Source: Escherichia phage vB_EcoM-813R1. From it: a DNA stretch of 64,000 bases. The notes beneath the pieces are model-generated. The model made no database searches. It worked only from the letters and a program-made list of their open reading frames with translations, and was not told the DNA's origin. How positions within the stretch are numbered: the first letter of the stretch is position 1; the number at the start of each line of letters is the position of its first letter. Of this stretch, positions 28,301 to 30,307 are shown one piece after another. The translations under genes and the position numbers were made by a program. The DNA lies in sequence record ON470617.2. The stretch is one strand, 5' to 3'.

Positions 28301-28853
28301 TGATCGTGCCGCGTTAACTGCACTGACAAGTGTTGGACGTGCAATTCTTAGTAAGCCCAGTATTCAGAGCGTTCTTAATTACCTTGGTTTGGGAGAAACG
28401 ATAGATAAAGCCTCCGGAGCTATGCAGAAATCGGCTAATGGATATGATATTTCTGATGTATCAGCCTTCCGAAATGCGCTCCAGTTAGGGACCGCTGCAA
28501 CACGAGATGTTGGAGCAGATAATGCCTCGAAGTTACTGGATTTAGACAGCTTCAGGTCAATGATGTCAGGTAATGGCTACATCTACATTCCATGCATTGC
28601 GACGACAGGAAACCCGGTGAAACTTATGTTGCAGTGGGGAATGGTGGCAACACAAAAGGGAGTTGATGCTGGATATGCCTTACCATTTGCTTTTCCCTAT
28701 GCAGGTTTGTTTGCGACCGGAAACCGTGGAACATCTGGCTACAATGCCGCGATGAATGTGCGTATTGCCAGCAGAACGCATATCAGTATTCAGAACTGGT
28801 CGCCATCCGGAGAGGGCACCGAAGATTGTTGTTTTATCGCGTTGGGGTATTAA
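25335..28853 (+). CDS. S: Tail fibre protein S (constant part Sc plus currently fused variable part Sv), with a greatly expanded phage tail-fibre repeat array; three apparent frameshifts
   Basis: Start MNDVTVVTSV at 25335; repeats of the tail-fibre motif TTQKGIVQLSS(A/D)TNSTSE(V/T)LAATPKAVKAAYDLA; four ORFs (25248-26750, 26732-27217, 27199-27516, 27498-28853) each break at the same HTHPWNQITG position; C-terminal Sv domain lies inside the invertible segment. Confidence 0.7.
25960..28200 (+). repeat. In-frame tandem repeat array in S: alternating 300-bp and 168-bp units
   Basis: The string ggcatcactcagctcagtag recurs at 26292, 26460, 26759, 27059, 27225, 27525, 27825 and 28125 (spacings 168, 299, 300, 166, 300, 300, 300). 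Confidence 0.85.
28373..28398. other. Candidate cixL recombination site (Cin crossover site at the Sc/Sv junction)
   Basis: ttcttaattaccTTggtttgggagaa; core TTGGTTT(G/A)GG(A/G)A is shared with the inverted copy at 30282-30307. Confidence 0.5.
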
Positions 28854-28855
28854 GA

Positions 28856-29521
28856 ATGAATAAATTTTATAAAGGCTCTTTCTATCCGGAAGCACTAAAA
28901 GATGTATATATCAGCGCCGGTTCATGGCCTGAAAATGGCGCTGATGTTGATGATGAAACAATGGCAATTTACACAGGCGTAGCGCCAGAAGGCAAAACGC
29001 TGGGGGCTGATAAAAATGGTAATCCTGCGTGGATTGATATCCCGCCACTCTCCGCTGAACAACAGATTATTCAGGCTGAACAGAAAAGAACGGTATTGCG
29101 TTCTATGGCTGATAAGGAAATAGTCTGGAGACAGGATGCTTTTGATGCGGAAATCGCGACGGCAGAAGAAACCGCCGCGTTATCTGAATGGAAAAAATAC
29201 CGGGTCTTGCTGATGCGCGTTGATACATCAAATCCCGTCTGGCCTACGCCTCCGGGGAGCAGGCCAATTGATATCCGGCGCGGTGCTGGTATCTGTTGCC
29301 GTCACCGCGTCAATGTAATCCAGCACAGCGTTAAGTCTAGTTGTTTCTGCCTGCGTCAGTTTACGTCCGGCCTGCAATTTCAGTTGAATCAGACTGATGG
29401 AAGCCATTGCAGTATCAATCAGCGACTGGCGCTGTGCTTCTGCCGCTTCTACTGCGGCGCTATGCTGTGCCTCGGTATCCGTCACCCATTTCTCACCATC
29501 CCATTTATCGTATGGCGTTAA
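28856..29521 (+). CDS. U: Tail fibre assembly chaperone U (Tfa family); 3' end uncertain
   Basis: Start MNKFYKGSFYPEAL at 28856; conserved Tfa C-terminal signature ...NPVWPTPPG at about 29262, after which the ORF reads antisense to U' as Cys-rich sequence, suggesting a lost stop or indel. Confidence 0.55.
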   Translation: MNKFYKGSFYPEALKDVYISAGSWPENGADVDDETMAIYTGVAPEGKTLGADKNGNPAWIDIPPLSAEQQIIQAEQKRTVLRSMADKEIVWRQDAFDAEIATAEETAALSEWKKYRVLLMRVDTSNPVWPTPPGSRPIDIRRGAGICCRHRVNVIQHSVKSSCFCLRQFTSGLQFQLNQTDGSHCSINQRLALCFCRFYCGAMLCLGIRHPFLTIPFIVWR

Positions 29522-29845
29522 TGGGGCAATAGTGGTTGTATTTTCAGGATAGTCGCCCGGTGCAGTGATTTCTTTGGCGTCCCCCGTTTCGGTGTTATAG
29601 ACGATTTCACCGCGATGGTCTGGCACATATTCCCATGAATTTAAATCCAAAGAACGGCAGATTGCATAACCAGCCTTATGTATGCCGGGGGCATCTAAAC
29701 AAGAATATGCCGGAATACCAACACCTACCGCAAGATATTCAGTTGATGCGGAAATATATTCCTTTGTCTCACTGTCATAGTTGTAAACGATGATGTTTCC
29801 TGCCTGTACGGCAATAAGTTCATTATTCAATATCGCGCTATTCAT
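29228..29845 (-). CDS. Alternative tail fibre assembly chaperone U' (expressed after inversion)
   Basis: 205-aa minus-strand ORF ending ...DINWPAP..., convergent with U inside the invertible segment. Confidence 0.55.
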   Translation of the reverse strand: MNSAILNNELIAVQAGNIIVYNYDSETKEYISASTEYLAVGVGIPAYSCLDAPGIHKAGYAICRSLDLNSWEYVPDHRGEIVYNTETGDAKEITAPGDYPENTTTIAPLTPYDKWDGEKWVTDTEAQHSAAVEAAEAQRQSLIDTAMASISLIQLKLQAGRKLTQAETTRLNAVLDYIDAVTATDTSTAPDINWPAPRRRRPDGI

Positions 29846-30261
29846 TATGCAGCTCTCACAATATAGTTAAATGCAATATTTCTCGGACGGGTTTCACGCC
29901 CACCAGGAATTTGAAAAGCATTAGCGGTTGTAGATCCGCCTTCCTGATTAATTCCTGTTGTATAAATACCACTCACACCATTTTGCAATGCAAATACTGT
30001 TGCGGTTCCGGGCCCACCACCTGGCCCAAAATACTTAAGTTCGAACTTTTTAATATCATCACTCTGAATATTCAATAAAGCACGTCCTGTATCAATGCCG
30101 CGTCCATCATCCCAGCCACGAATAAACTCACCGCGTAAATCCGGCAATTTATTTGTCGGATAAGCCTTCGCCAGTTTAGGATATTCAACGGCAGAAAACG
30201 CTGCACCGTTACATTTCAGCCACCCCGTTGGTGGTGTGGCTGAGGGCCACGGAACAGGCAC
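29845..30261 (-). CDS. Alternative tail-fibre variable domain Sv' (becomes the S C-terminus after inversion)
   Basis: 138-codon minus-strand frame (GTG at 30261) that is open upstream through the cixR site (…KRWFREGSALPVGVPVPW…); glycine-rich receptor-binding-like sequence; stop overlaps the U' start. Confidence 0.55.
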   Translation of the reverse strand: MPVPWPSATPPTGWLKCNGAAFSAVEYPKLAKAYPTNKLPDLRGEFIRGWDDGRGIDTGRALLNIQSDDIKKFELKYFGPGGGPGTATVFALQNGVSGIYTTGINQEGGSTTANAFQIPGGRETRPRNIAFNYIVRAA

Positions 30262-30281
30262 ACCAACGGGCAGCGCCGAGC

Positions 30282-30307
30282 CTTCCCTAAACCAACGTTT
30301 AAGAAAA
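30282..30307. other. Candidate cixR recombination site
   Basis: cttccctaaaccAAcgtttaagaaaa, an inverted imperfect copy of the 28373-28398 site, lying between Sv' and cin. Confidence 0.5.

What the first reader, a model, noticed from the sequence alone, without database searches (positions are those of the whole stretch)
28373..30307. Compact 1.9-kb Cin-invertible segment with short cix sites and a frame inconsistency at the crossover
Two imperfect inverted sites sharing the core TTGGTTT(G/A)GG(A/G)A lie at the Sc/Sv junction inside S and between Sv' and cin. The segment holds Sv and U on the top strand and U' and Sv' on the bottom strand. This resembles the Mu G-segment layout more than the P1 C-segment, which I recall as about 4.2 kb with roughly 0.6-kb inverted repeats; here Sv and Sv' share no long common 5' region. 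In S the shared core is read as cTT-GGT-TTG, whereas the Sv' frame reads it as cgT-TGG-TTT, so recombination at equivalent positions would not preserve frame. Either a 1-nt indel lies near cixR, or the crossover point is not where I placed it.
Basis: partly seen in the sequence, partly recalled or inferred. Interest (0 to 1): 0.55.

Follow-up and report, generated by a model that had tools for sequence, protein, structure and literature searches.

The report
Tail-fibre inversion switch with sequencing error
This is an ordinary, already-described DNA-flipping switch that lets a P1-like phage-plasmid of E. coli alternate between two tail-fibre tips, and the odd reading-frame mismatch at its edge is almost certainly a one-base sequencing error, not biology.

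Summary
Two inverted 26-bp crossover sites (28372-28397 and 30283-30307) bracket a 1.9-kb segment carrying Sv-U on the top strand and U'-Sv' on the bottom strand, next to a serine invertase gene. In this window the Sv' frame is indeed off by one.

Twenty near-identical E. coli plasmids have TTCCCCTAAACC where the window has TTCCCTAAACC. Restoring the C gives an in-frame Sc-Sv' fusion. Six of those plasmids carry the segment flipped, with hybrid sites that place the exchange within TTGGTTT, and they have an intact 1067-aa tail fibre.

The missing C is one of 51 single-base deletions in the window relative to a 99.9%-identical plasmid. Forty-one lie in homopolymers of 4 or more bases, 15 lie at CCWGG, and together they break 25 of 56 genes. 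That is the signature of an unpolished long-read assembly.

The module is not P1's Cin/C-segment. It is the e14 Pin / p15B Min type: the invertase is 81% identical to PinE, U' is 85% identical to TfaE, the invertase gene reads away from the segment, and a 5' remnant of P1 cin sits downstream.

It is real and functional but already known, so interest is low.

The parts
25335..28853 (+). Tail-fibre gene S: constant part Sc up to the left crossover site, then Sv. In the window it is broken into four ORFs by 1-nt deletions at 26714, 27178 and 27481.
   Evidence: ORFs. An intact 1173-aa CDS (WP_155367602.1) is annotated in the 99.9%-identical plasmid NZ_CP093228.1. Deletions are located.
28372..28397 (+). 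Left crossover site, 26 bp: TTCTTAATTACC-TT-GGTTTGGGAGAA, with the core dinucleotide TT at 28384-28385. It encodes ...NYLGLGE... of S.
   Evidence: The inner half-site is identical to both e14 pix inner half-sites. The breakpoint of natural inversions maps here.
28386..28853 (+). Sv, the variable C-terminal tail-fibre tip currently fused to Sc (about 156 aa, Gp53-like_C domain).
28856..29271 (+). U, the tail-fibre assembly chaperone for Sv (138 aa in the reference, Caudo_TAP). Its 3' end is frameshifted in the window by a deletion in a G5 run at 29253.
29244..29845 (-). U', the tail-fibre assembly chaperone for Sv' (200 aa, Caudo_TAP), 85% identical to e14 TfaE. It converges on U and overlaps it by about 29 bp, as tfaP and tfaE do in e14. 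The same deletion at 29253 alters its last codons.
29845..30293 (-). Sv', the alternative promoterless tail-fibre tip (about 150 aa, phage tail Collar domain). It is expressed only after inversion. In the window it is out of frame with Sc because of the deletion at 30284.
   Evidence: The in-frame fusion ...NYLGLGEGSALPVGVPVPW... is seen in NZ_AP023436.1.
30283..30307 (-). Right crossover site. It is 25 bp in the window and 26 bp in all relatives, where the reverse complement reads TTTTCTTAAACG-TT-GGTTTAGGGGAA. The core AA is at 30294-30295 on the + strand. The window lacks one C of the CCCC run (30285-30287).
   Evidence: It matches e14 pixR at 23 of 26 positions.
30363..30934 (+). Din-family serine DNA invertase gene (190 aa in the reference, WP_023351542.1), transcribed away from the segment. 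It is split into two ORFs in the window by a deletion in a T6 run at 30671.
   Evidence: One search gives 81% aa identity to PinE, 76% to Cin and 72% to Gin. One search finds Resolvase plus HTH_7 domains. One search finds the exact protein on 579 contigs.
30381..30452 (+). Inferred recombinational enhancer (Fis-binding sis element), nt 19-90 of the invertase gene.
   Evidence: Assigned by homology only. It aligns with the stretch annotated as the enhancer in the P1 record and is conserved among the window invertase, pinE, cin and gin. It was not tested functionally.
31066..31242 (-). Degenerate remnant of the first 177 nt of a P1-type cin gene, with an in-frame stop after codon 8. It marks the right-hand junction where a Pin/Min-type module replaced P1's cin-C-segment.
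   Evidence: 93% identity to P1 31836-29891 on the minus strand, with P1 homology resuming at 31066. One search shows the alignment. PGAP annotates the equivalent in a relative as a frameshifted partial recombinase.

Best explanation
The window is the first 64 kb of a P1-like (IncY) phage-plasmid of E. coli. It carries a two-state tail-fibre host-range switch.

A Hin/Gin/Cin/Pin-family serine invertase (30363-30934) pairs the two inverted 26-bp sites. It cleaves both at the central TT/AA dinucleotide and rotates the strands. This flips the 1.91-kb segment, presumably helped by Fis bound to an enhancer in the 5' end of its own gene.

In the orientation seen here, the late S promoter expresses Sc-Sv plus chaperone U. 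After inversion it expresses Sc-Sv' plus chaperone U'. The two site halves inside the segment both encode G-L-G-E, so the fusion is in frame in either orientation.

The module is of the e14 Pin / p15B Min type and has replaced P1's own cin and 4.2-kb C segment.

The apparent frame break at the right site is an assembly artefact. One C of a CCCC run was under-called, as at 50 other positions in the window.

Shown: the sites, the gene content, natural inversion at these sites, frame preservation in relatives, and the error pattern. Inferred: Fis/enhancer dependence, the exact 2-bp staggered cleavage, and host-range consequences.
For: Indel:
- Alignment to NZ_CP093228.1 shows the window lacks a C at 30284, inside the right site.
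- All 14 same-orientation relatives at 99.5% identity or more align 2804 nt to the window's 2801 nt. They therefore carry the three bases missing at 29253, 30284 and 30671.
- The two inverted records fetched, L002 and L003, show GGGG at the site.

Artefact signature:
- Of 52 indels against the reference across 64 kb, 51 are 1-nt deletions in the window, compared with only 31 substitutions.
- 41 of 51 lie in runs of 4 or more, which make up 6.8% of bases. 15 of 51 lie at CCWGG Dcm motifs.
- They hit 25 of 56 annotated CDSs, including sit, S, U, U', the invertase, darA, the large methylase, mod, res, ref and c1.

Inversion is real:
- Six near-identical plasmids (H85-H90) carry window 28372-30305 on the opposite strand relative to the flanks.
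- Their junctions are clean hybrids...ATTACC-TTGGTTT-AGGGGAAGGC... and ...TAAACG-TTGGTTT-GGGAGAAACG....
- The resulting S gene is annotated as an intact 1067-aa protein reading ...NYLGLGEGSALPVGVPVPW....
- Orientation differs between plasmids of almost the same size from the same strain series: CREC-629 vs CREC-532, ECO12/13 vs ECO11, strain 158 vs 167.

Family:
- Resolvase plus HTH_7 domains.
- 72-81% aa identity to Gin, Cin and PinE.
- Sites match the gix/cix/pix 12-2-12 pattern with identical cores.
- The enhancer-homologous stretch is conserved.

Pin/Min type:
-.
- The P1 record's own notes map a cin-5'-like p15B stretch ending at P1 31832.
Against: - No reads are available, so the missing C cannot be shown directly to be an error rather than a private mutation of this isolate.
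- Inversion was inferred from differences between isolates, not observed within one culture.
- The enhancer and Fis dependence are assigned by homology only.
- The window's source record was not found in the collections searched, so its sequencing platform is unknown.
Confidence: 0.93

Rival explanations
1. The 1-nt deletion in the right site is a genuine mutation of this plasmid. In that case Sv' cannot be expressed in frame, and the shortened inner half-site may also impair recombination. The element would be a phase-locked or decaying prophage.
For: The window sequence does read CCC rather than CCCC. The invertase gene is also interrupted in the window, which would fit a decayed switch.
Against: - The same kind of change occurs 51 times in 64 kb, always as a deletion, concentrated in homopolymers and CCWGG.
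- There are only 31 substitutions.
- 25 of 56 genes would be inactivated, including the c1 repressor gene and many virion genes. Natural decay that produces only homopolymer contractions in an otherwise 99.9%-identical plasmid is implausible.
- None of the 14 same-orientation relatives carries the deletion, nor do the two inverted records read directly.
Confidence: 0.04
2. The crossover does not occur at the TT core the reader chose. It occurs one or more bases away, or at other sites, so that the frame is preserved without any indel.
For: None beyond the apparent frame clash in the window itself.
Against: The two sites differ at the base immediately 5' of TT (C vs G) and at the sixth base 3' of TT (G vs A). 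Inverted natural plasmids carry the recombinant combinations of these markers, so exchange occurred within TTGGTTT. With the reference CCCC the frame is preserved at exactly this position. No other perfect match to the site core exists in the window.
Confidence: 0.01
3. The pair of short inverted sites is a chance resemblance, and the segment is a fixed, non-invertible arrangement of convergent tail-fibre cassettes.
For: The complementary stretch is only 13 nt at 85% and ranks 24th among 59 inverted pairs in 2.7 kb. Loose pattern hits are only modestly above expectation.
Against: Both orientations exist among near-identical plasmids, with breakpoints at the sites. The sites match the pix, cix and gix sites half-site by half-site. 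An adjacent invertase gene is 81% identical to PinE.
Confidence: 0.01

Closest known systems
Pin / P-segment inversion system of the defective prophage e14 of E. coli K-12 (pinE, stfP/ycfK, tfaP, tfaE, stfE)
   Same: - Gene order is the same: tail-fibre gene, site, tip, chaperone, convergent chaperone, alternative tip, site, then the invertase gene reading away from the segment.
- Segment size is nearly the same: 1827 bp between cores in e14 against 1910 bp in the window and 1912 bp in the reference.
- The two chaperone genes are 414-417 nt and 603 nt long and overlap by about 29 bp in both.
- The invertase is 81% identical in protein sequence.
- U' is 85% identical to TfaE, and the N-terminus of Sv' is identical to StfE.
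- The right site matches pixR at 23 of 26 positions, and the left inner half-site is identical to pix.
- Inversion of the e14 segment has been observed within cultures (PMC4272514).
   Different: - The host element is a P1-like plasmid prophage with a P1-type S/R tail-fibre operon, not a lambdoid remnant.
- The left cassette is unrelated to the e14 one: Sv has a Gp53-like_C tip, and U is only 42% identical to TfaP.
- The C-terminal half of Sv' diverges from StfE, giving 66% identity overall.
Min multiple-inversion system of plasmid p15B (a P1-related plasmid prophage of E. coli 15T-)
   Same: - A P1-type backbone in which a pin-like recombinase gene and invertible tail-fibre DNA replaced the Cin system. 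This is from my own knowledge of Sandmeier, Iida & Arber 1992, J Bacteriol 174:3936. The paper is listed as reference 21 of PMC11850598 but could not be read here.
- The P1 GenBank record notes a p15B stretch homologous to P1 31570-31832, that is, a 5' cin remnant. It ends within 4 nt of the break seen in the window at P1 31836.
- A Min-like invertase in reverse orientation has been reported in the P1-like plasmid pJIE250-3 (PMC6906374).
   Different: - From my own knowledge, p15B has six crossover sites and a 3.5-kb multi-segment array. The window has only two sites and two cassettes.
- Multi-cassette versions do occur in related plasmids such as NZ_CP173482.1.
- Identity to the Min protein itself could not be measured because no Min sequence was available.
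Cin / C-segment of bacteriophage P1
   Same: - Same biological role and position in the genome, between S and lydC.
- Same family of recombinase (76% aa identity) and of crossover site.
- Same Sc-Sv-U / U'-Sv' logic.
   Different: - The P1 C segment is 4256 bp. P1 cin reads towards the segment, and its 3' end overlaps cixL. From my own knowledge, the P1 segment also has about 0.6-kb inverted repeats.
- Here the segment is 1.91 kb, the only repeat is the 26-bp site itself, and the invertase gene lies in the opposite orientation.
- P1 homology is absent between window 26082 and 31065 apart from 70% identity within the recombinase gene.
- U and U' are only 26-36% identical to P1 U and U'.
Gin / G-segment of bacteriophage Mu
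   Same: - Short crossover sites with no long inverted repeat.
- The invertase gene lies beyond the right site and reads away from the segment.
- The S-U / U'-S' layout is the same.
- The recombinase is 72% identical.
   Different: - The G segment is about 3.06 kb (31966-35025).
- The core dinucleotide is TC/GA rather than TT/AA.
- The cassettes are not homologous to those here (26-36% identity for the chaperones).

Membership tests
Din-family (Hin/Gin/Cin/Pin) serine-invertase DNA inversion systems | A small (about 185-195 aa) serine recombinase with an N-terminal resolvase catalytic domain, including the nucleophilic Ser in the YVRVST motif, and a C-terminal HTH domain. | tested here: met
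   Pfam Resolvase (8.8e-52) plus HTH_7 (3.5e-15) on the intact reference protein. It starts MLIGYVRVSTNDQ and is 72-81% identical to Gin, Cin and PinE. The window copy carries a 1-nt deletion at 30671, judged to be an artefact.
Din-family (Hin/Gin/Cin/Pin) serine-invertase DNA inversion systems | Two 26-bp crossover sites in inverted orientation, each with two imperfect 12-bp half-sites around a 2-bp core that is identical in both sites. | tested here: met
   Left: TTCTTAATTACC-TT-GGTTTGGGAGAA. Right (reverse complement, reference): TTTTCTTAAACG-TT-GGTTTAGGGGAA. Both align half-site by half-site with the pix, cix and gix sites taken from the e14, P1 and Mu records.
Din-family (Hin/Gin/Cin/Pin) serine-invertase DNA inversion systems | The segment between the sites actually inverts, with exchange at the core. 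| tested here: met
   Six near-identical plasmids have the opposite orientation and 14 have the window's orientation. Hybrid junctions confine the exchange to TTGGTTT. This is evidence between isolates, not within a culture.
Din-family (Hin/Gin/Cin/Pin) serine-invertase DNA inversion systems | A cis-acting recombinational enhancer that binds Fis. | tested here: inconclusive
   Nt 19-90 of the invertase gene align with the stretch annotated as the enhancer in P1 cin and are conserved across the four genes. Fis binding and enhancer activity cannot be tested with these tools.
P1 Cin / C-segment (in the strict sense) | A roughly 4.2-kb segment with long inverted repeats that encode a shared part of Sv and Sv'. 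| tested here: not met
   The segment is 1910 bp between cores in the window and 1912 bp in the reference. There is no inverted repeat beyond the site. Sv and Sv' share only LGLGE. The P1 segment is 4256 bp.
P1 Cin / C-segment (in the strict sense) | cin lies upstream of the segment, is transcribed towards it, and has cixL overlapping its 3' end. | tested here: not met
   Here the invertase gene starts 68 bp beyond the right site's core and reads away from the segment. In P1, cin occupies 31660-32220 and cixL 32215-32234. A truncated P1-type cin lies separately at 31066-31242.
e14 Pin / P-segment type | A segment of about 1.8 kb with convergent, overlapping tfa genes, a StfE-like Collar-domain tip, and a pin-like gene downstream of the right site. 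| tested here: met
   The left cassette (Sv and U) is not e14-like, so the match covers the right half of the segment plus the recombinase and sites.
p15B Min multiple-inversion (shufflon-like) type | More than two crossover sites, giving several alternative tips. | tested here: not met
   Only two sites are present in the window. Relatives with four or more promoterless tail-protein cassettes do exist (L009).

The most novel reading that the evidence does not exclude
The most novel reading that my evidence does not exclude is that the missing C in the right site, and the frameshift in the invertase gene, are genuine. This isolate's plasmid would then be a naturally phase-locked variant. Its alternative tail-fibre tip would be silenced by a 1-nt contraction inside the recombination site itself, a slippage-prone C-run acting as a second, heritable layer of control over the switch.
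Probability: 0.03. Interest if true: 0.25.

Novelty: already known. Interest (0 to 1): 0.08.

Why it matters
It matters mainly as quality control. The window comes from an assembly with roughly one homopolymer deletion per 1.2 kb. Any frameshift, pseudogene or 'broken site' noticed elsewhere in it should be assumed artefactual until checked against relatives.

Biologically it adds only small points:

- The compact Pin/Min-type inversion module found in many P1-like IncY plasmids is active. Both orientations occur among near-identical clinical plasmids. An earlier comparative paper suggested that reverse-oriented invertase genes in P1-like plasmids probably mean a non-functional switch (PMC6906374).
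- Its substitution junction matches the one noted for p15B.
- Tail-fibre switching affects host range, and so the spread of these plasmids, some of which carry resistance genes.

Tried and rejected
- **Inverted-repeat search and degenerate pattern search.** The sites are too short and imperfect to stand out statistically, so these could not validate the finding on their own.
- **Megablast against phage genomes.** There was no full-length match. Only mosaic pieces matched, in P2-like prophages, a P1-like phage and others. P1 itself is too divergent here to appear.
- **Exact-sequence cluster look-up of the invertase, U and U'.** It returned only generic names ('recombinase family protein', 'tail fiber assembly protein', one 'TfaE'). 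It could not show whether the invertase is Min.
- **Sandmeier et al. 1992 (PMC206102).** I tried to read it to document the p15B/e14 relation, but it is not held. That relation is therefore cited from my own knowledge plus the notes in the P1 GenBank record.
- **A crossover displaced from the TT core.** Considered and rejected.
- **Programmed frameshifting or an alternative start for Sv'.** Considered and rejected as unnecessary once the reference showed an in-frame fusion.
- **Natural pseudogenisation.** Rejected on the direction, context and number of the indels.
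Full report
**What is in the sequence**

Window 25335-30934 holds a tail-fibre operon followed by a recombinase gene. It contains, in order:

- A long S gene.
- A site TTCTTAATTACC-TT-GGTTTGGGAGAA at 28372-28397, inside S.
- The distal part of S (Sv, to 28853).
- A tail-fibre assembly gene U (28856-29271).
- On the other strand, a second assembly gene U' (29244-29845) and a promoterless tail-fibre tip Sv' (29845-30293).
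- A second site at 30283-30307, whose reverse complement reads TTTTCTTAAACG-TT-GGTTTAGGGAAG.
- A serine-recombinase gene at 30363-30934.

S uses cTT-GGT-TTG and the Sv' ORF uses cgT-TGG-TTT.

The sites are short. The complementary stretch is 13 nt at 85% and ranks 24th among 59 inverted pairs in the region. A loose pattern search gives 6 hits against 1.7 expected. Sequence statistics alone therefore do not establish them.

**Where the window comes from**

The window is collinear from base 1 (repA) with the IncY plasmid pEC-16-35-3 (NZ_CP093228.1) at 99.87% identity. That plasmid carries RepA, ParAB, a Cre-like integrase, the C1 repressor, Ref, Phd/Doc, DarA and P1-type virion genes. It is therefore a P1-like phage-plasmid.

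**The frame inconsistency**

Aligned to that plasmid, the window lacks one C in a CCCC run at 30284, inside the inner half of the right site.

With the C restored, the site is TTTTCTTAAACG-TT-GGTTTAGGGGAA. Joining Sc to Sv' at the TT core then gives ...TAC CTT GGT TTA GGG GAA GGC TCG..., which translates to ...Y L G L G E G S A L P V G V P V P W.... This is in frame.

All 14 same-orientation relatives at 99.5% identity or more align 2804 nt to the window's 2801 nt. They carry the three bases missing from the window at 29253 (U/U' overlap), 30284 (right site) and 30671 (invertase gene).

**Is the deletion real or an error?**

- Across the 64 kb there are 52 indels relative to the reference. Of these, 51 are single-base deletions in the window, against 31 substitutions.
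- 41 of the 51 lie in homopolymer runs of four or more, which make up 6.8% of the sequence. 15 lie at CCWGG, the Dcm methylation motif.
- 44 fall in coding sequence and interrupt 25 of 56 annotated genes. These include the sit transglycosylase, S (three times), U, U', the invertase, darA, the 6.8-kb methylase gene (five times), mod, res (four times), ref and c1 (twice).

One-directional homopolymer contraction plus errors at Dcm sites is the recognised signature of unpolished nanopore-type assemblies (established knowledge). Genuine decay would not produce it in a plasmid otherwise 99.9% identical to intact ones.

I judge the frame break to be an artefact with about 0.93 confidence. A private real mutation remains possible (about 0.04), because no reads were available.

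**Does the segment invert, and where?**

Six near-identical plasmids (H85-H90) match window 28372-30305 on the opposite strand to their flanks. Two of them were fetched as L002 and L003.

The two parental sites differ at the base just 5' of TT (C vs G) and at the sixth base 3' of it (G vs A). The inverted plasmids carry the recombinant combinations...ATTACC-TTGGTTT-AGGGGAAGGC... and ...TAAACG-TTGGTTT-GGGAGAAACG.... Exchange therefore occurred within TTGGTTT, consistent with cleavage at the TT core.

In these plasmids S is annotated as an intact 1067-aa protein ending in the Sv' tip.

Orientation differs between plasmids of nearly identical size from the same strain series: CREC-629 vs CREC-532, ECO12/13 vs ECO11, and strain 158 vs 167. 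This points to frequent switching.

**What kind of system it is**

The intact invertase (190 aa) has Resolvase and HTH_7 domains. It is 81% identical to e14 PinE, 76% to P1 Cin and 72% to Mu Gin. The classical enzymes are 75-82% identical to one another, so it is a standard member of that family.

Its sites align half-site by half-site with sites extracted from the e14, P1 and Mu records. The right site matches e14 pixR at 23 of 26 positions. The left inner half-site is identical to the pix inner half-sites.

Nucleotides 19-90 of the gene align with the stretch annotated as the recombinational enhancer in P1 cin and are conserved in pinE and gin. Enhancer function is inferred, not tested.

Sv carries a Gp53-like C-terminal domain and Sv' a phage tail Collar domain. 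U and U' are Caudo_TAP chaperones.

The mechanism is the textbook one. Inversion swaps which tip-plus-chaperone pair is joined to the constant S gene and its late promoter, producing virions of two host ranges.

**It is not P1's own Cin system**

- In P1 the C segment is 4256 bp, cin reads towards it, and cixL overlaps the end of cin.
- Here the segment is 1.91 kb, there is no repeat beyond the 26-bp site, and the invertase gene reads away from the segment, as in e14 and Mu.
- e14 has the same architecture in detail: a 1827-bp segment, chaperone genes of 414 and 603 nt converging with a 29-bp overlap, and a StfE tip whose N-terminus is identical to Sv'.
- P1 homology stops at window 26081 (P1 37095, inside S) and resumes at 31066 (P1 31836). 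This leaves the first 177 nt of a P1-type cin, now with a premature stop, in inverted orientation at 31066-31242.
- The P1 GenBank record notes that p15B has a homologous stretch ending at P1 31832.

From my own knowledge, this is the substitution of a pin-like system into a P1-like backbone that Sandmeier, Iida and Arber described for p15B Min in 1992. The paper could not be read here. Its title is in the reference list seen.

The window carries the minimal two-site version. Relatives such as NZ_CP173482.1 carry four or more promoterless tip cassettes, as in Min.

**Literature**

- Comparative papers on P1-like plasmids list lydC-cin-Sv'-U'-U-S as one of the hypervariable regions (PMC9603915; RD-3 in PMC6906374).
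- PMC6906374 reports a Min-like invertase in reverse orientation in pJIE250-3. For the three elements it studied, it suggests that the altered invertase genes (truncated or reverse-oriented) and modified C segments likely impair the switch.
- The orientation polymorphism found here shows that the reverse-oriented module is active in this lineage.
- Inversion of the e14 segment within cultures is documented (PMC4272514).
- The exact invertase protein occurs on 579 contigs in public data.

**Verdict**

The 'Cin' attribution should be changed to the Pin/Min type, and the frame clash is a sequencing artefact. The system is real and functional but already known, and identical copies are common in public plasmids. 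Interest is low (0.08).

Noticed in passing
whole window (for example 887, 3718, 8148, 13905, 19195, 26714, 27178, 29253, 30284, 30671, 33124, 47238, 58514, 63859): The window has 51 single-base deletions and 1 insertion relative to a 99.9%-identical plasmid. Nearly all are in homopolymers or at CCWGG, and they break 25 of 56 genes. The assembly appears unpolished, so frameshifts anywhere in this window are suspect.
   Followed up: yes
window 31066-31242 (- strand): A degenerate 5' remnant (177 nt) of a P1-type cin gene, reading MLIGYVRI then a stop. It still contains the stretch homologous to P1's annotated enhancer. It marks the substitution junction, which lies within 4 nt of the p15B homology end noted in the P1 record. 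Whether the leftover enhancer-like sequence has any effect is unknown.
   Followed up: partly
window 25956-28223: The constant part of S is a tandem array of 132/168-bp (300-bp composite) units at 96-98% identity, encoding repeated ...TQKGIVQLSSDTNSTSETLAATPKAVKAAYDLA... motifs. S length differs among relatives (1173 aa vs 1067 aa). That difference equals one 100-aa repeat unit plus the 6-aa difference between the tips, which suggests copy-number variation. P1 homology ends at 26081, at P1's own repeated elements.
   Followed up: partly
window 29244-29271: The convergent chaperone genes U and U' overlap by about 29 bp at their 3' ends, so each strand encodes the ...WP.PP... tail of one protein. 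e14 tfaP and tfaE overlap by the same 29 bp. In the window a G5-to-G4 deletion at 29253 removes both natural stop contexts.
   Followed up: partly
L009 (NZ_CP173482.1) 1-4290, and H97 (NZ_CP069886.1, 6 places): Related P1-like plasmids carry four or more promoterless 'phage tail protein' cassettes around the same chaperone pair and invertase. This looks like a multi-site Min-like shufflon version of the module. The query matched 10 places in that record.
   Followed up: partly
L003 (NZ_CP024832.1) 3501-5433: In this public record the segment is 3 nt shorter than in L002, and the record has no U or U' annotation. Some deposited relatives therefore seem to carry homopolymer errors in the same module too.
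   Followed up: no
window about 35390-36600 (reference NZ_CP093228.1 35121-36329): A TnpB-family RNA-guided endonuclease gene (an IS200/IS605-type element) is inserted between the ddrA-like and ddrB-like genes. It is absent from the corresponding part of the P1 annotation. PMC6906374 mentions an IS609 insertion in other P1-like plasmids.
   Followed up: no
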